IMG/VR virus record: IMGVR_UViG_3300029181_000093
Coordinates: 1 to 4,983 of that record
Strand: one strand, 5' to 3'
Source of the DNA: a virus
Lineage: Duplodnaviria; Heunggongvirae; Uroviricota; Caudoviricetes
DNA length: 4,983 nt
Part shown: positions 1 to 4,983 of the stretch, piece after piece
Layout: every line of letters starts with the position of its first letter
Position numbering within the stretch: position 1 is the first letter of the stretch
Program-made: the position numbers and the translations under genes
Notes under the pieces: generated by a model
The model's database searches: none
Told to the model about the DNA's origin: nothing
What the model saw: the letters and a program-made list of their open reading frames with translations, nothing else

Positions 1-157
1 CAGCCGGAATATCTGGCGGTGCAATATCGGTACTGTTTGCTGGCAGACCTGTATGAGGCGGAATATATGCGTCACCTTCACCAATAAATTCATTAGTTCC
101 GGCCAGCAGATTATAAATTTTTATGGTCCGTGGTTGTTCACTCATTCTGAATGCCAT
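1..157 (-). CDS. tfa: Tail fibre assembly protein Tfa, N-terminal 52 codons only; the 3' end lies beyond the left window edge
   Basis: Reverse-complement translation from the ATG at 155-157 gives [52 protein letters not shown], matching phage lambda Tfa N-terminus as I recall it. Its ATG overlaps the stf stop in a TAATG arrangement, as in lambda stf-tfa. It is absent from the ORF track because it is cut by the window edge. Confidence 0.9.
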
Positions 158-3100
158 TATGCAAGCCTCACAATATAGTTAAATGCGATGTTTTTGACGG
201 TGTTTTCCGCGTTACCAGCAGCGTTAACGGTGATGGTGTGTCCATGTGAACCAATCGCAACGGAGTGCGTGTGTGCACCAATACCGACAGTATGTGCGTG
301 TGCACCTGCAGATGCTGCTGTGCCGGACAGTGAGTGGCTATGGTTACCATCTGTACTGGTATTAGCTAACGCCCCCGTAGACATACCTACTGAGCCTTGT
401 ACACCCCAGGTATTTTGACCTGAGCTTGTATAACCATATTGATAAGTATCTTTAAAAACACTGGGGTTAAATCGACGGCCATCTCTATGGCTGTGATTAC
501 CAGCTGCATTCGTGCTGCCACTTAAACTATGGGTATGCGCACCAGTGTTATTCGTGGATTTAGTGCCGTAATCAAACGACGATGTGGTTTTCGTCCCCAA
601 ATCCGTACTGGATGCGCTGGCGCTGTGGGTATGCGATTTTATGCCGTCCTGTTCCTGAGACAATACGGCACGACCACTGGCGGGCTTGCCCTTAATCGTC
701 CAGCCACGCATATCAGGGATCACGCCTGACGGATAAGCGGCTGCAAGTTTCGGGTAGGCAGATTTGTCAAAAGTCTGCCCCTGCATCAGGGCATAACCAG
801 ACGGAACGGTATCTGATGGCCACGGGATTGGTGCGCCGACTGGGTAGCTTTCTGGTGGAAGATTTTTCGAGGTATAAACTTCTGCCCAGTCTTCCTCAAA
901 ACCATAACCGTCTCTTGAAGAACGGTAGAACAGACCACCATTTCTGTAATGCGCCTTCATCTGCAGGGTCCGGCAACTTCCGACTCCGGTATAGAAGTTA
1001 ACCAGAATATAGCTGTCGCCAGAGCGGGTGACATTATAAGCGCCTGATTCGGCATTCCAGGGAACGCCACCATCCGCATCGGCATATGTATCCGTTGCCC
1101 TTCTGGCAAAAGCAGCCACATGCGCGGCGGTTAAAGTAATATCTTTGGAACCATCAAACTCAACACCAGAAACCCGTCTTGGCGTTTGCAGCTTTGTTGC
1201 TGTTAATGCATTACCGTTCAGACTTGCGGACAGTTTGGTTCCAATAACCAGTTCGCCGGTTGCGTTATCAATAGCAAACGGTCTTAATGTATTCCAGCCA
1301 CCATAAACATCACCTTGATTGGTAAGCAGCAGGTAAGTTTTAGCGCCATCATTACGCCATAATGCCCCATACTCCCCACCTATCATTCGAATCTGATTAC
1401 CACCACGCGCTACAATTTCGTCTGTGGCAAAAAGTTTTTTGCACGACAAGTTATCGTTAACGATTAACGAATGAGACTCATAAAAACCACGCCCACTCTT
1501 AAAATCAAGGATAACGTCCGCCGCGATACATTCAGTCGCCGGATTTGTTGCCCCAAACTTATAGGTCGTATCATTAACAACGAGATCAGCACCAGGTGCG
1601 GATATTGACAGGCCATCTTCGATAAACGCAAAAACAGGGAAAGCAGCGCCATCAACATAGAACACAGAGCGCAAATCATCGCCCTTATTACTCATCATTA
1701 TTGAGTGGATGGCTCGTTCATTGTTTTGATATTGCCAGAACATTCCATAAGCATAACGCCCCCTGTCAGTCCAGCCACCAGGCATAACAAATCCGTTAAA
1801 CTCGCAGTTATTCATCGGATCGCCTGCGGTTCGCGTTGCCGTGGTGATAATGACCCTTGATGCCAGTTCGCTTACTGAGCCAGCAGAACGCATAACAACA
1901 ACAGGGTAATATTTTCCAGATGTTGCACCTGCAGGAGCGTTAACCCGCACATAACGCATACCACGCTTATCAGCAAAGTCTGTTTTACTGACCGCGTTAA
2001 TGTTGTTCAGGAAGCGTCCCTTATCGGGTATATCCGCACCGTTCTGGTCTTTCTGCAGACGTTTCTCAGCATTGTCATAGGCTGTTTTTACTGCCTTTGG
2101 TGTCGCGGCAAGCGTTTCAGACGTGCTGTTGGTCGCGCTGCTTAGCTGGATTATCCCTTTCTGTGCTGTCGTTGCATCCTGTGCGGTGTATTTCCCGTTA
2201 GCCAGGTCATACGCGGCCTTAACGGCTTTTGGTGTTGCCGCCAGTGACTCGGAAGTGCTGTTAGTCGCACTACTGAGCTGTACTATCCCCTTTTTCGTCG
2301 TGCTCGCATCCTCAAGCGCCACAGCGGATGCAATATCCTCTGCCCGTTTTGCTGCTGTCTCGGCGCGCGTTGCTGCGGATTCTGCCGTACTCTTGCTCTG
2401 TGCTGCCGCCGTCGCACTGCCAGCAGCCTCTGTTGCCTTCGTGGATGCCGTCGTGGCGCTGCCCTTCGCTGCTGACGCTTGTCTGGTCGCCTCATCTTTT
2501 GAAGCAGACGCCGATGAGGCCGATGACGCCGCCGAACTGGCGGACGATGCGGCAGCCGTTTTTGAGGATTCTGCGCTGGTTTCCGACGCTTTCGCGTTCG
2601 TTTCGGATGTCTTTGCTGCGGAAGCTGACCTCGCTGCTGCGCTGGCCTGTTCAGTGGCTTCGCCAGCCTTCGTTGTGGCTGTTGAAGCAGACGATGCGGC
2701 ACTTTCTGCCGACTTTCCGGCAGCGGTGGCACTGGCTGAGGCCTGCCCGGCACTTGTTGATGCGGCACTGGCAGATGATGCAGCCGCTGTTTTTGAGCCT
2801 GCCGCAGCTGAGGCACTCTGTCCCGCTGCCGTTTCAGAAGACCTGGCGTTCGTCTCGGACGTTTTTGCCGCCTTCGCGGAATTTCCTGCCGCCGTTGCCG
2901 AGGAAGCTGCGCTACTGGCGCTCGAGGATGCGTTCGTTTCTGATGATTTTGCCGCCTCTTTTGAAGCCGACGCATCCCGGGCTGAGGTGGCAGCTTCTGA
3001 CGCTTTCGTAGTCGCGGTGGATGCAGAAGTGGCTGCTGATTGTTGTGACGCTGCAGCATTCGTTTCTGACGTTTTCGCGGCACTGGCACTGGTAGCTGCC

Positions 3101-3459
3101 GCGCTTTTTGAGGACTCTGCAGCGGCAGCACTTTTTTCCGCTTCAGTGGCCTTTGTTGATGCCGTTCCTGCGCTGGAAGACGCTGACTGAGCCGACGAAG
3201 CGGCCTGTCCGGCTGACGTGCTGGCTGCGCGTGCTGAGCCTGCAGCATCAGTCGCATGGGTTGCCGCCTCACGGGCAGATGTGCCGGCATCGCCGGCTGA
3301 CTTCTTCGCGGCTGCCGTGTTCTGTGCCACCGCGGACGCGTTACGCGCCACCTCTTCCACCATCAGTTCAAAACGGCGCAGAGCCTCCGGACGGGCCTCA
3401 TCCTCCGTCATGGCACCGAGAAAATCATTCAGCGTACCGGGTCGGGAATCTTCATACAC
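157..3459 (-). CDS. stf: Side tail fibre protein Stf, long mosaic variant of 1100 aa, N-terminally truncated relative to lambda Stf
   Basis: A 3303-nt minus-strand ORF. Residues 1-40 ([13 protein letters not shown]...[12 protein letters not shown]) align with lambda Stf from about residue 79. It is followed by an Ala/Ser/Thr-rich shaft with recurring KTSETNA motifs, two tandem copies of the phage fibre repeat KGI(V/I)[11 protein letters not shown](S/T)LAATPKAVK, and a C-terminal region with [13 protein letters not shown]...[16 protein letters not shown] and clustered HxH motifs, ending [11 protein letters not shown] like lambda Stf and T4 gp37. The first codon is GTG; start choice is uncertain because the next in-frame ATG is at codon 17. 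Confidence 0.88.
2068..2292 (-). repeat. Tandem duplication (2 copies of about 132 bp, 44 aa) of the phage tail-fibre repeat motif inside stf
   Basis: Stf residues 390-433 and 434-464 are near-identical ([29 protein letters not shown] versus [29 protein letters not shown]). The corresponding DNA shows a clear direct repeat. This is coding, not CRISPR. Confidence 0.8.
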
Positions 3460-3652
3460 GGTGATGGTCCCGGCATGTGACGGCGGGAACGGGCGCTGAA
3501 TAATGCTCTTTCCGCTCTGCCATCACTTCAGCATCCGGACGTTCGCCAATTTTCGCCTCCCACGTCTCACCGAGCGTGGTGTTTACGAAGGTTTTACGTT
3601 TTCCCGTACTCGCACCGAAAATGTCAGCCAGCTGCTTTTTGTTGACTTCCAT
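3452..3652 (-). pseudogene. nu1: Chimeric terminase remnant: small terminase Nu1 codons 1-15 fused in frame to about 41 codons from the interior of large terminase gene A, terminating out of frame inside stf-homologous sequence
   Basis: The translation begins MEVNKKQLADIFGAS, the lambda Nu1 N-terminus, with lambda-like upstream sequence and RBS. From codon 16 it reads [41 protein letters not shown], which I recognise as an internal segment of lambda gpA. The last 9 codons ([10 protein letters not shown]) are stf DNA read in the wrong frame. Breakpoints are at about 3605-3608 (Nu1/A) and about 3484-3490 (A/stf). Confidence 0.75.
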
Positions 3653-3674
3653 TGTTCATTCCACGGACAAAAAC

Positions 3675-3795
3675 AGAGAAAGGAAACGACAGAGGCCAAA
3701 AAGCTCGCTTTCAGCACCTGTCGTTTCCTTTCTTTTCAGGGGGTATTTTAAATAAATACATTAAGTTACGACGAAGAAGAACGGAAACACCTTAA
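3675..3795 (-). other. cosB-like terminase binding region with three R elements (R1 3677..3688, R2 3722..3733 inverted, R3 3778..3789)
   Basis: The reverse complement is near-identical to the lambda left end between cosN and the Nu1 start. The R1 and R2 regions form a perfect 15-bp inverted repeat (gaaaggaaacgacag at 3678..3692 and ctgtcgtttcctttc at 3718..3732). R3 carries one substitution relative to lambda as I recall it. Confidence 0.8.
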
Positions 3796-3829
3796 ACCGG
3801 AAAATTTTCATAAATAGCGAAAACCCGCG

Positions 3830-3841
3830 AGGTCGCCGCCC
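3830..3841 (-). other. cosN cohesive-end site (12-nt GGGCGGCGACCT on the minus strand)
   Basis: The plus strand reads aggtcgccgccc, whose reverse complement is GGGCGGCGACCT, the lambda cohesive end. It is flanked on one side by CGCGGGTTTTCGCTATTTATGAAAATTTTCCGG (lambda left end) and on the other by lambda right-end sequence ending ...CGACAGGTTACG. Confidence 0.85.
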
Positions 3842-3892
3842 CGTAACCTGTCGGATCGCCGGAAAGGACCCGCAAAATGATAATAATTATCA
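3842..3892 (-). other. cosQ-side right-end region of cos, including a 15-bp palindrome TGATAATAATTATCA (3878..3892)
   Basis: This matches the lambda right-end terminal sequence with several substitutions. The palindrome is seen directly and has a near-identical counterpart in lambda. The exact cosQ element boundaries are not resolved here. Confidence 0.6.
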
Positions 3893-4040
3893 TCTGCATG
3901 TCACAACGTGCATCTACGCCATCAAACCACGTCAAATAATCAATTATGACGCAGGTATCATATTAATTGATCTGCATCAACTTAACGTAAAAACAACTTC
4001 AGACAATACAAATCAGCGACACTAAATACGGGACAACCTC

Positions 4041-4274
4041 ATGTCAACGAAGAACAGAACCCGCAGAACAACAATCCGCAACATCCGCTTTCCTAACCAA
4101 ATGATTGAACAAATTAACATCGCTCTTGATCAAAAAGGGTCCGGGAATTTCTCAGCCTGGGTCATTGAAGCCTGCCGCCGGAGACTGTGCTCAGAAAAAA
4201 GAGTTTCTCCTGAAGCAAACAAAGAAAAGAGTGACATTACTGAATTGCTCAGAAAACAGATCAGACCAGATTGA
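4041..4274 (+). CDS. Small basic ribbon-helix-helix (Arc/CopG-like) putative DNA-binding protein, 77 aa
   Basis: The ORF starts about 200 bp from cosN and is transcribed away from cos. The N-terminal 50 aa (MSTKNRTRRTTIRNIRFPNQMIEQINIALDQKGSGNFSAWVIEACRRRL) follow a beta-strand, helix, G-S turn, helix pattern typical of RHH folds, and match the lambda right-end ORF as I recall it. The C-terminal tail (CSEKRVSPEANKEKSDITELLRKQIRPD) differs from the lambda counterpart. No strong Shine-Dalgarno is seen. Confidence 0.65.
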   Translation: MSTKNRTRRTTIRNIRFPNQMIEQINIALDQKGSGNFSAWVIEACRRRLCSEKRVSPEANKEKSDITELLRKQIRPD

Positions 4275-4330
4275 AGCAATTTAGATAATCGTGCAGACTA
4301 CGCCCCTCATATCACATGGAAGGTACCACA

Positions 4331-4741
4331 ATGGCTCAGGTTGCCATTTTTAAACAAATATTCGATAAAGTGCGAAATAATTTAAACTATCACTGGTTTT
4401 ATTCTGAACTAAAACGTCACAATGTCTCACATTACATTTACTATTTAGCTACAGAGAATATTCATCTTGTTCTTGAAAACGATAATACGGTTTTAATAAA
4501 AGGACAGGGTAAGGTTGTAAATGTAAGATTTTCAAAAAATAAATGCCTTATAGAAGCCACCTTAAAAGGATTCAAATCAGGAGAGTTATCATTTTACGAA
4601 TACAGGAAAAATCTTGCTACAGCAGGGGTTTTCAGATGGATTACAAATATCCACGAAAACAAAAGGTATTACTATACCTTTGATAATTCATTACTCTTTA
4701 CTGAGAACATTCAGAACACTACACAAATATTTCCGCACTAA
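4331..4741 (+). CDS. ybcV: DUF1398-family protein resembling YbcV of E. coli cryptic prophage DLP12, 136 aa
   Basis: The ATG at 4331 is preceded by GGAAGG (4318..4323) at 7-nt spacing. The ORF-track start at 4316 has no RBS. The product ([18 protein letters not shown]...[31 protein letters not shown]) matches my recollection of YbcV (136 aa). The gene is strongly AT-rich compared with the neighbouring stf. Confidence 0.75.
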
Positions 4742-4893
4742 ATCATAACGTCCGGTTTCTTCCGTGCCAGAACCGGACTCGCTGGCATGATGAAATATGT
4801 GTACCCGGTAACCCCGGTGTGCATCGTTTTTGATTATTCCCGCACACTCGCGCAGAAGGAGTTCCCCGTCGGGCTACGGTCTCTGTTAATACG

Positions 4894-4983
4894 GGAACTC
4901 AGCCTGATGTTTTTCAATAAAGACATACTTCATTTCAGGCGCTTCGCGAAGTATGTCGCGGCCTTTTGGAGGATAGCCAGCTC
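4894..4983 (-). mobile_element. IS3-family insertion sequence fragment: 3' end of orfA (insE-like, 4930..4983, partial) and first 13 codons of orfB (insF-like, ATG at 4931..4933), truncated at about 4894
   Basis: The minus strand encodes ...ELAILQKAATYFAKRLK-stop, then ATGAAGTATGTCTTTATTGAAAAACATCAGGCTGAGTTC (MKYVFIEKHQAEF) in the -1 frame with the typical AAATGA overlap. I recognise this as the IS3 orfA/orfB junction. Homology stops abruptly after orfB codon 13, followed by PY-stop, so most of orfB and the far end of the IS are missing. Confidence 0.8.

What the first reader, a model, noticed from the sequence alone, without database searches (positions are those of the whole stretch)
3675..3892. 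Intact-looking cos site retained in a prophage remnant that has no terminase
cosN, the three R elements with the R1/R2 inverted repeat, and the right-end palindrome are all preserved at near-lambda identity, while Nu1 is reduced to 15 codons and A to a 41-codon scrap. A chromosomal cos without its own terminase is a substrate for terminase from a superinfecting or co-resident lambdoid phage. This could cause cleavage at cosN and unidirectional packaging of adjacent DNA, leftward in this window through stf-tfa, in the manner of cos-type satellite hijacking. Alternatively the conservation may simply reflect recent decay.
Basis: inference. Interest (0 to 1): 0.5.

Follow-up and report, generated by a model that had tools for sequence, protein, structure and literature searches.

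The report
Lambda cos site in decayed prophage
This is a genuine lambda-type DNA-packaging (cos) site left in a recently decayed E. coli prophage that lost its packaging enzyme genes, a common and already described situation with no sign that the site is being specially preserved.

Summary
Window 3675-3892 holds a complete lambda-specificity cos: cosQ, cosN, R3, the I1 region, R2 and R1, plus an upstream palindrome. Nu1 is cut to 15 codons and gpA to 41 codons (350-390), fused to a 5'-truncated stf.

The locus is a mosaic prophage remnant of the DLP12/Qin kind. Its cos is 100% identical to one in E. coli NWU_3 and 99.6% identical to K-12 DLP12. This cos type occurs in 3985 of 5426 complete E. 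coli genomes, with a median of 2 copies among genomes that have any match.

Retention is best explained by recent decay plus exchange between cos copies. An intact prophage (strain MS6198) matches the window over 1291 nt except for 5 SNPs. Those SNPs form a 65-bp patch in cosB carrying the K-12 DLP12 haplotype, which looks like gene conversion.

Across 88 terminase-intact and 29 remnant loci, remnant cos sites are no better conserved. If anything they are slightly relaxed.

Cleavage or packaging by a helper terminase is plausible and the stated direction is right. This has already been published for homologous cases (K-12 DLP12; O157 Sp4). Nothing supports satellite-like hijacking. Interest is low.

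The parts
1..157 (-). 5' part of the tail-fibre assembly gene tfa. Its ATG overlaps the stf stop codon.
   Evidence: Sequence. In L003 the same gene is complete (194 aa, Caudo_TAP).
157..3486 (-). Side tail fibre gene stf, lacking about its first 66 codons. The listed ORF is 157-3459 (1100 aa).
   Evidence: Pfam phage_tail_N (profile positions 77-134 only), Phage_fiber_2, Gp34_trimer and Collar. Junction mapped against the full-length stf of ET490.
3486..3606 (-). gpA (large terminase) scrap, codons 350-390. It is joined to stf codon ~67 through a TTCC microhomology.
   Evidence: Pfam GpA_nuclease, profile positions 36-75 of 294.
3607..3652 (-). Nu1 (small terminase) codons 1-15, joined to gpA nt ~1047 through a 2-nt (TA) microhomology.
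3452..3652 (-). 66-codon fusion ORF: Nu1(1-15), then gpA(350-390), then out-of-frame stf. It marks this remnant architecture.
   Evidence: The exact protein is found on 5 metagenome/Logan contigs but in none of 5426 complete E. coli genomes.
3677..3692 (-). cosB R1 (lambda 151-166), CTGTCGTTTCCTTTCT.
   Evidence: Element definition from PMC9026076.
3718..3733 (+). cosB R2 (lambda 109-124). Same 16-mer as R1, inverted relative to R1.
3751..3763 (-). Putative core of IHF site I1 (lambda 79-91). It matches WATCAANNNNTTR at 8 of 9 specified positions on the other strand. The T85A change (3757) falls on an N position.
   Evidence: My own reading of the sequence (inference).
3777..3792 (-). cosB R3 (lambda 50-65). 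The core 55-63 is identical to lambda. C53T at 3789 is a common polymorphism.
   Evidence: 53T in 11 of 64 intact haplotypes..
3740..3804 (.). 65-bp patch of 5 SNPs (3740, 3757, 3769, 3789, 3804, i.e. lambda 102, 85, 73, 53, 38). These are the only differences from same-scar contigs and from the intact MS6198 prophage. The alleles are those of the K-12 DLP12/NWU_3 cos. Probable gene-conversion tract.
3828..3843 (-). cosN (16 bp). The 12-nt cohesive end is at 3841-3830. Predicted nicks lie between 3842|3841 and 3830|3829.
   Evidence: Definition.
3865..3871 (-). cosQ, GGGTCCT (lambda -30..-24).
   Evidence: The cosQ coordinates are from my own knowledge (Wieczorek & Feiss 2001).
3877..3893 (.). 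17-nt palindrome upstream of cosQ (ATGATAAT-A-ATTATCAT). It is present in lambda with a different centre. No known role in packaging.
3894..4040 (.). Lambda right-end non-coding DNA between cos and the DUF3950 gene.
4041..4274 (+). ylcI/ynfO-family gene (DUF3950).
   Evidence: RefSeq names.
4316..4741 (+). ybcV/ydfO-family gene (DUF1398).

Best explanation
The 218 bases are a complete lambda-specificity cos site inside a recently decayed, mosaic lambda-family prophage of the DLP12/Qin kind.

Two microhomology deletions destroyed the packaging genes. One (about 1.5 kb) runs from Nu1 codon 15 to gpA codon 350. The other (about 18 kb) runs from gpA codon 390 to stf codon ~67. Both left cos untouched.

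cos looks intact for two reasons. First, little time has passed since the deletions. Second, the many lambda-type cos copies in E. coli exchange short sequence patches, so remnant copies keep being overwritten with working haplotypes. It is not under detectable selection in the remnant.

Mechanistically (inferred), it should behave as a passive target. Any lambda-specificity terminase made in the same cell can bind R3/R2/R1 with IHF and nick cosN. The main consequence would be a double-strand break that promotes recombination or gene conversion with other lambdoid DNA. At most there would be inefficient one-ended packaging leftward (stf, tfa, then appY-ompT). It would not give efficient satellite-like transfer.
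For: Shown:
- Every cos element is present, with correct order, orientation and spacing.
- The window differs from the consensus of 88 terminase-intact loci at only 3 of 433 positions. Two of these are shared polymorphisms. The third (85A) also occurs next to a full Nu1 and a gpA intact over the 584 codons held.
- The same cos type is in 3985 of 5426 complete E. coli genomes, with a median of 2 copies among genomes that have any match.
- It is 100% identical to the NWU_3 cos and 99.6% identical to K-12 DLP12.
- Recency: the intact MS6198 prophage at the DLP12 site is identical to window 3607-4897 except for 5 SNPs.
- Exchange: those 5 SNPs cluster in 65 bp, are the only differences from four contigs with the identical 66-aa scar over 3.8-4.7 kb, and jointly equal the K-12 DLP12 haplotype.
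- No extra conservation. Private variants per haplotype are not fewer or more in remnants (Mann-Whitney p = 0.51). The core/non-core diversity ratio is 0.70 in intact loci against 1.12 in remnants (permutation p = 0.05). 7 remnant haplotypes are identical to intact ones. One remnant (L046) is truly decayed.
- Among closely related intact loci the cos region is locally the most variable stretch, not the most conserved.

Literature:
- K-12 DLP12 cos region: recombination junctions cluster at cos, and recombinants carrying DLP12 nu1/R/Rz are viable (PMC3945230).
- Terminase-defective Sp4 is packaged, most likely through a near-identical cos (PMC2669165).
Against: - Nothing here shows cleavage. 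Function is inferred from sequence.
- The I1 assignment and the harmlessness of T85A are my own reading.
- The 5-SNP patch could be an assembly chimera between two cos copies if the window comes from a short-read assembly.
- The direction of conversion rests on parsimony with few, possibly clonal, contigs.
- The comparative samples are phylogenetically non-independent and have low power. Eight private remnant variants outside L046 fell in spacers and none in core elements. The chance of that is about 0.2, so weak purifying selection cannot be excluded.
- The chromosomal site is inferred from related contigs (L003, MS6198), not from the window itself.
Confidence: 0.8

Rival explanations
1. Satellite-like hijacking. 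The remnant keeps cos under selection so that helper-phage terminase packages it and its neighbours, spreading stf-tfa and flanking host genes.
For: - cos is intact and of the common lambda specificity.
- Co-resident lambda-type terminases are frequent: 88 of 138 sampled loci are intact, and the median is 2 cos copies per genome that has any.
- Defective lambdoid prophages can be packaged by other prophages (PMC2669165).
- E. coli PICIs do use lambda-type cosN (PMC6092414).
- Many independent deletions spare cos.
Against: - There is no excess conservation of cos in remnants.
- The sparing of cos is largely an ascertainment effect of anchoring on the neighbouring gene. About 3.5 breakpoints would be expected in the cos interval and 1-3 were seen (my estimate from the breakpoint lists).
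- The window encodes no replication, excision, Rpp or capsid-size functions.
- Cos-type terminases need a second cos to finish packaging.
- PICIs depend on replication to give tandem cos sites.
Confidence: 0.07
2. The site is already dead. The changes C53T in R3, T85A in the IHF region and the others make it a non-functional relic that merely resembles cos.
For: - 85A was absent from all 64 intact haplotypes of the anchored sample and was seen only in DLP12-type remnants there.
- Spacing and R3 mutations can be severe (PMC9026076).
Against: - 53T occurs in 15 terminase-intact loci.
- The R3 core 55-63, cosN, cosQ, R2 and R1 are identical to lambda.
- 85A lies at an unspecified position of the IHF consensus (inference). 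It occurs next to a full Nu1 and a gpA intact over 584 held codons in L225.
- K-12 DLP12 carries 85A. Lambda recombinants that took DLP12 nu1 together with a marker in ybcV, and so must span cos, were viable.
Confidence: 0.07
3. The stretch is retained for a non-packaging role, for example as promoter or leader DNA for the divergent DUF3950 gene, or as part of the late transcript that now reads into stf-tfa.
For: - It lies between divergent ORFs.
- A sigma-70-like site overlaps the palindrome (3904-3877, minus strand).
Against: - Promoter-like sites are not above the shuffle expectation (3 found against 1.3 +/- 1.4).
- There is no Rfam match.
- The region is locally the most polymorphic among close relatives.
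Confidence: 0.04

Closest known systems
cos site of cryptic prophage DLP12 of E. coli K-12 (ylcI - cos - nohD - aaaD' - tfaD', next to appY-ompT)
   Same: - The cos haplotype is the same, including 85A: 99.6% over 236 nt.
- The gene order on the right side is of the same kind (DUF1398, DUF3950, cos).
- A contig with the same scar continues into appY-ompT-envY-ybcH-nfrA, which is the DLP12 site.
- The large terminase is destroyed.
- The K-12 copy is reported as a recombination hot region with lambda.
   Different: - K-12 keeps a full Nu1 homologue (nohD) and gpA codons ~1-100, and has lost stf.
- This window keeps only Nu1 1-15 and gpA 350-390 and has a 1100-aa stf.
- ybcW is absent.
- The DUF1398 region is only 83% identical.
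- Neither architecture can be derived from the other.
cos region of cryptic prophage Qin (tfaQ-stfQ-nohA-cos-ynfO-ydfO)
   Same: - The layout is identical: tfa, stf, terminase scrap, cos, DUF3950, DUF1398.
- The very same gpA390::stf67 scar is present at the Qin site of strain GmM062.
   Different: - The right flank and cos are only about 90-96% identical to K-12 and GmM062 Qin.
- K-12 Qin has Nu1 1-176 fused to stf 844-1100.
- From my own knowledge, not verifiable in the paper library: the Qin cos was shown functional through lambda qin111 (Espion et al. 1983).
Terminase-defective lambdoid prophage Sp4 of E. coli O157 Sakai, packaged through a co-resident prophage's terminase
   Same: A lambdoid prophage without an intact terminase but with a cos nearly identical to that of a co-resident prophage. 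The published inference is that the other prophage's terminase packages it (PMC2669165).
   Different: - Sp4 is a nearly full-length prophage that is amplified and excised.
- Its defect is an IS insertion in nu1.
- Here about 19.5 kb of head and tail genes are gone, and excision or replication capacity is unknown.
cos-type phage satellites (E. coli PICIs such as EcCICFT073; P4)
   Same: Chromosomal elements without their own terminase that carry a lambda-like cosN and are packaged by helper terminase (PMC6092414, PMC9026076).
   Different: - PICIs have their own integrase, replication module and helper-induced derepression.
- PICIs have a different cosB and use Rpp to redirect TerS.
- This locus has the phage's own cosB, phage tail-fibre genes and none of those functions in the window.

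Membership tests
lambda-specificity cos site | cosN: the 12-nt cohesive-end sequence GGGCGGCGACCT with flanking symmetric bases | tested here: met
   3843-3828 is identical to lambda. Definition from PMC9026076.
lambda-specificity cos site | cosB with order R3-I1-R2-R1, R2 inverted, and the R3 contact core (bp 55-63) intact | tested here: met
   R3 at 3792-3777 (core identical; C53T lies outside the core). R2 at 3733-3718 and R1 at 3692-3677 are identical 16-mers in opposite orientation.
lambda-specificity cos site | Exact cosN-to-cosB spacing | tested here: met
   The alignment from cosN to R3 is ungapped.
lambda-specificity cos site | cosQ (GGGTCCT about 30 bp upstream of the nick), needed for termination | tested here: met
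   3871-3865. The coordinates of cosQ are recalled from the literature and were not checked in a held paper.
lambda-specificity cos site | IHF site I1 between R3 and R2 | tested here: inconclusive
   A consensus-like match lies at lambda 79-91 (window 3763-3751). T85A falls on an N position. This is my own reading, with no binding data.
lambda-specificity cos site | Cleavage by terminase and ability to support packaging | not testable with these tools
   Indirect only. The same haplotype elements are seen next to intact terminase genes. The K-12 DLP12 cos region is viable in lambda recombinants.
DLP12/Qin-type cryptic lambdoid prophage remnant | Lambda late-region synteny (lysis, DUF1398, DUF3950, cos, Nu1, A ... 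stf, tfa) with internal deletions | tested here: met
DLP12/Qin-type cryptic lambdoid prophage remnant | Chromosomal position (argU...appY-ompT for DLP12; ydfJ...dicB for Qin) | tested here: inconclusive
   The window does not reach the host DNA. The same-scar contig L003 runs into appY-ompT-envY-nfrA. The right flank equals the MS6198 prophage at that site. But the gpA::stf scar also exists at the Qin site.
cos-type phage satellite (PICI / P4-like) | Own integrase/excision, helper-responsive regulator and autonomous replication module | tested here: not met
   There are none among the window's ORFs (Pfam). The rest of the element was not seen.
cos-type phage satellite (PICI / P4-like) | Packaging redirection (Rpp with a distinct cosB, or capsid-size remodelling) | tested here: not met
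   cosB is the phage's own. There is no such gene in the window. Criteria.
cos-type phage satellite (PICI / P4-like) | High-frequency helper-dependent transfer | not testable with these tools
   Needs an experiment.

The most novel reading that the evidence does not exclude
The remnant cos is in regular use. Terminase from co-resident or infecting lambda-specificity phages cuts it, and two things follow. First, break repair from other cos copies keeps remnant cos sites "fresh"; the 65-bp DLP12-type patch beside cosN would be a footprint of this. Second, one-ended in situ packaging moves the adjacent host genes (appY, ompT, envY, nfrAB and beyond). That would be a cos-phage analogue of lateral transduction, seeded by the thousands of orphan cos sites in E. 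coli chromosomes.
Probability: 0.1. Interest if true: 0.5.

Novelty: already known. Interest (0 to 1): 0.15.

Why it matters
As it stands this is an ordinary feature. Orphan or near-orphan lambda-type cos sites in cryptic prophages have been known since the work on DLP12 (qsr') and Qin, and they are present in about three quarters of complete E. coli genomes.

Their practical meaning is threefold:
- They are places where any lambda-specificity terminase can break the chromosome.
- They are preferred crossover points through which infecting phages pick up remnant genes, here stf-tfa and the late-region morons.
- They are repeats that break assemblies and mediate rearrangements.

The one new point here is small. 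Two copies of the same remnant differ only by a short patch next to cosN that was copied from another cos type. This fits concerted evolution of cos copies rather than selection or simple decay.

Tried and rejected
- Source of the window. An exact 30-mer across the Nu1::A junction is absent from the GTDB species representatives. No complete E. coli genome has both scars. Only 5 metagenome/Logan contigs carry the exact fusion ORF.
- Selection on cos. Private-variant counts, per-element diversity, a permutation test and a Fisher test gave no evidence of extra constraint and have low power. Deletion breakpoints sparing cos are explained by ascertainment.
- 85A as a remnant-only decay mutation. 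Rejected after finding it next to a full Nu1 and a gpA intact over the 584 codons held.
- Structured RNA or tandem repeats in the region. Rfam gave 0 matches and TRF gave 0.
- A promoter in the palindrome. Not above chance.
- Literature. Murialdo 1988 (terminase lethality in rec- cells) was not found in the held library. Espion 1983 (lambda qin111) surfaced only as the search term inside other papers, which I did not open. Both are cited from memory only.
- My first guess that the locus was Qin, from the ynfO-ydfO layout, was revised. The flank identity to MS6198 and contig L003 point to the DLP12 site, with a scar shared with Qin.

Full report
**1. What is there**

The window's minus strand is colinear with the lambda map. 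From right to left in window coordinates it reads as follows:
- an internal IS3 fragment (4898-4983);
- a DUF1398 gene (4316-4741);
- a DUF3950 ylcI/ynfO-family gene (4041-4274);
- 147 nt of lambda right-end non-coding DNA;
- a 17-nt palindrome (3877-3893);
- cosQ GGGTCCT (3871-3865);
- cosN (3843-3828, with the cohesive end at 3841-3830);
- R3 (3792-3777), the I1 region, R2 (3733-3718) and R1 (3692-3677);
- the Nu1 ATG (3652);
- Nu1 codons 1-15, then gpA codons 350-390;
- an stf gene lacking about 66 codons (to 157), and the start of tfa.

The element definitions are those of Murialdo and Feiss (PMC9026076). The R1/R2 inverted repeat and the palindrome are also returned by the repeat finder.

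This includes "15 codons" and "41 codons", both 100% matches to lambda Nu1 1-15 and gpA 350-390.

The two deletion junctions have 2-nt (TA) and 4-nt (TTCC) microhomologies.

**2. What locus this is**

The layout equals that of K-12 Qin (tfaQ-stfQ-nohA-cos-ynfO-ydfO). The cos haplotype, however, is that of K-12 DLP12: 99.6% identity, including the otherwise rare 85A.

The exact 66-aa fusion ORF is absent from 5426 complete E. coli genomes and from the GTDB representatives. It is present on five gut-metagenome or Logan contigs. One of these, L003, continues through tfa into appY-ompT-envY-ybcH-nfrA, which is the right boundary of DLP12.

Strain MS6198 carries an apparently complete lambda-like prophage at that site, running from Q and the lysis genes through Nu1, A, the head and tail genes, J, lom and a truncated stf to appY-ompT. 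Its right end is identical to window 3607-4897 except for five SNPs.

The gpA390::stf67 scar, on the other hand, is found without any gap at the Qin site of strain GmM062. Other strains show other scars:
- gpA488::lom in ET490;
- Nu1-172::stf in NWU_3;
- Nu1-176::stf-844 in K-12.

So the window is a mosaic remnant. It was produced by deletion and by exchange between lambdoid prophage sites.

**3. How common is this**

The 240-nt cos is found at 80% coverage or more in 3985 of 5426 complete E. coli genomes. There are 8834 places in all, with a median of 2 per genome among those that have any match.

I anchored on the neighbouring DUF3950 gene, which is independent of cos conservation, and collected 207 loci from species-representative genomes, metagenomes and IMG/VR. 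Of these, 138 carry the full 433-nt stretch (right end, cos and Nu1 codons 1-15). They break down as follows:
- 88 have full-length Nu1 and gpA;
- 29 are remnants, with at least about 20 different breakpoints in Nu1 or gpA, many fused to stf.

A further 18 loci keep cosQ-cosN but switch at lambda +41..45 to another cosB with a divergent Nu1. That is the known specificity module boundary.

**4. Is cos specially conserved in remnants?**

No.
- The window differs from the consensus of the intact loci at 3 of 433 positions. 53T and the change at 4024 are shared polymorphisms, and the third is 85A.
- 85A is also found beside a full Nu1 and a gpA that is intact for the 584 codons held.
- Seven remnant haplotypes are identical to haplotypes of intact loci. 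12 of the 18 remnant-only haplotypes have no private variant. Private variants per haplotype do not differ between the classes (p = 0.51). One remnant (L046) is heavily decayed, with 31 private changes including changes in cosN, R2 and R1.
- Diversity in the core elements relative to the rest is 0.70 in intact loci and 1.12 in remnants (permutation p = 0.05). If this means anything, it indicates relaxation.
- Among closely related intact loci, the 400 nt around cosN carry 4-10 times more differences per base than the adjacent coding DNA. "Near-lambda identity" of cos is therefore not a sign of unusual conservation.

All these samples are phylogenetically non-independent and small. They can exclude strong extra constraint but not weak selection.

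**5. The patch**

Four contigs with the identical scar (L003-L006, aligned over 3.8-4.7 kb) and the intact MS6198 prophage (1.3 kb) differ from the window at the same five positions: 3740, 3757, 3769, 3789 and 3804. L004, L005, L006 and MS6198 differ nowhere else. L003 has three extra differences at the tfa end.

Five differences confined to 65 of 4657 bases cannot be independent mutations (order 1e-7). The window's five alleles are jointly those of the K-12 DLP12/NWU_3 cos.

This is a short conversion tract. Its minimum length is 65 bp. If the donor was NWU_3-like, its maximum is about 290 bp, and it may include cosN, which lies 26 bp from the last marker.

It shows that remnant cos copies are overwritten from other cos copies. 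That can keep them looking intact without selection. It also fits what De Paepe et al. reported for K-12 DLP12, where half of the lambda x DLP12 junctions lay next to cos.

Caveat: if the window comes from a short-read assembly, a chimeric consensus of two cos copies would look the same.

**6. How it most likely works**

Shown: the sequence has every element that lambda terminase needs.

From established knowledge:
- TerS binds R3/R2/R1 across an IHF bend and positions TerL to nick cosN.
- The cosB side is then translocated into the prohead, so packaging would run leftward in the window.
- Termination needs a second cos about one genome length downstream.

Inferred: in a cell that makes a lambda-specificity terminase, this site would be cut. 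The break would mostly be repaired, or would stimulate recombination with phage or prophage DNA. One-ended packaging would rarely give a transducing particle, because no downstream cos and no replication of the element are evident.

Published parallels exist for DLP12 and for the terminase-defective prophage Sp4 of O157.

From my own memory, not verifiable in the held library: lambda qsr'/qin111 recombinants, docL particles and Murialdo's terminase lethality in rec- cells point the same way.

**7. Verdict**

Helper cleavage is plausible and already described. Satellite-like hijacking is unsupported. Recent decay plus exchange between cos copies is the best explanation.
- The kind of feature is already known.
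- Interest is low (0.15).

Noticed in passing
window 4898-4983: An internal IS3 fragment abuts prophage DNA at 4897. On the minus strand it reads the end of orfA (...ELAILQKAATYFAKRLK*) and the start of orfB (MKYVFIEKHQAEF). It is not an IS end. Relatives L004 and MS6198 continue with prophage DNA here, so this is a further rearrangement scar specific to the window's source.
   Followed up: partly
L015-L054, e.g. L025 = CP136411.1 'Arcanobacterium hippocoleae plasmid unnamed1', 3566 bp: Dozens of assemblies of unrelated bacteria hold lambda right-end DNA. Examples are Cohnella, Brevibacillus, Streptomyces, Pseudomonas and Shewanella. The DNA sits on contigs of about 3.5 kb or about 48.4 kb, some of them labelled as plasmids. 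These look like sequencing control-DNA contamination. A 'Candidatus Nanosynbacter' MAG contig (L011) is E. coli prophage DNA.
   Followed up: no
L222 about 6100-6110 (GmM062, Qin site) versus L003 (DLP12 site); window about 3483-3486: The identical gpA-codon-390::stf-codon-67 deletion scar occurs at two different chromosomal prophage sites in different strains. The scar-bearing segment has therefore moved between lambdoid remnants by homologous recombination.
   Followed up: partly
18 loci, e.g. L014, L085, L092, L194 (homology to the window ends at lambda +41..45, window about 3797-3801): cosQ-cosN and the right end are shared, but cosB and Nu1 are replaced by other types. Nu1 identity is 36-52% in some and about 83% in others, with a gpA of about 66% or about 98%. 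This is a sharp module boundary between cosN and R3.
   Followed up: partly
L046 (E. coli ECGI0523, 1.62 Mb, Qin site): A genuinely decayed lambda-type cos. It has 31 private changes in 433 nt, including an insertion in cosN and substitutions in R2 and R1. It sits next to a 71%-identical Nu1 homologue with no large terminase. This shows what real decay looks like.
   Followed up: partly
lambda position 14 (window 3828) in L146, L139, L198, L011: A cosN G14T variant, 2 bp beyond the nick, is carried by 4 remnant loci and by only 1 of the 88 terminase-intact loci. It may be a hitch-hiking haplotype or a decay mutation.
   Followed up: no
window 2123-3190 (+) and 2283-3290 (-): Long ORFs of 355 and 335 codons lie antisense or out of frame within the Ala/Ser-rich repeat region of stf. 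These are compositional artefacts of that region, not genes.
   Followed up: no
window 3904-3877 (-): A sigma-70-like site (GTGACA, 16 nt, TATCAT) overlaps the palindrome just upstream of cosQ and points toward Nu1. The number of such sites in the region is not above the shuffle expectation.
   Followed up: partly
L217 (E. coli O155 NWU_3, 4.757-4.764 Mb): A cos 100% identical to the window's lies in a small remnant: rzpD, iss/bor, ylcI, cos, Nu1 1-172, tail-fibre scrap, tfa, exo', bet, gam. The remnant is wedged between murB and an rRNA operon, which is an unusual position for a lambdoid remnant.
   Followed up: no
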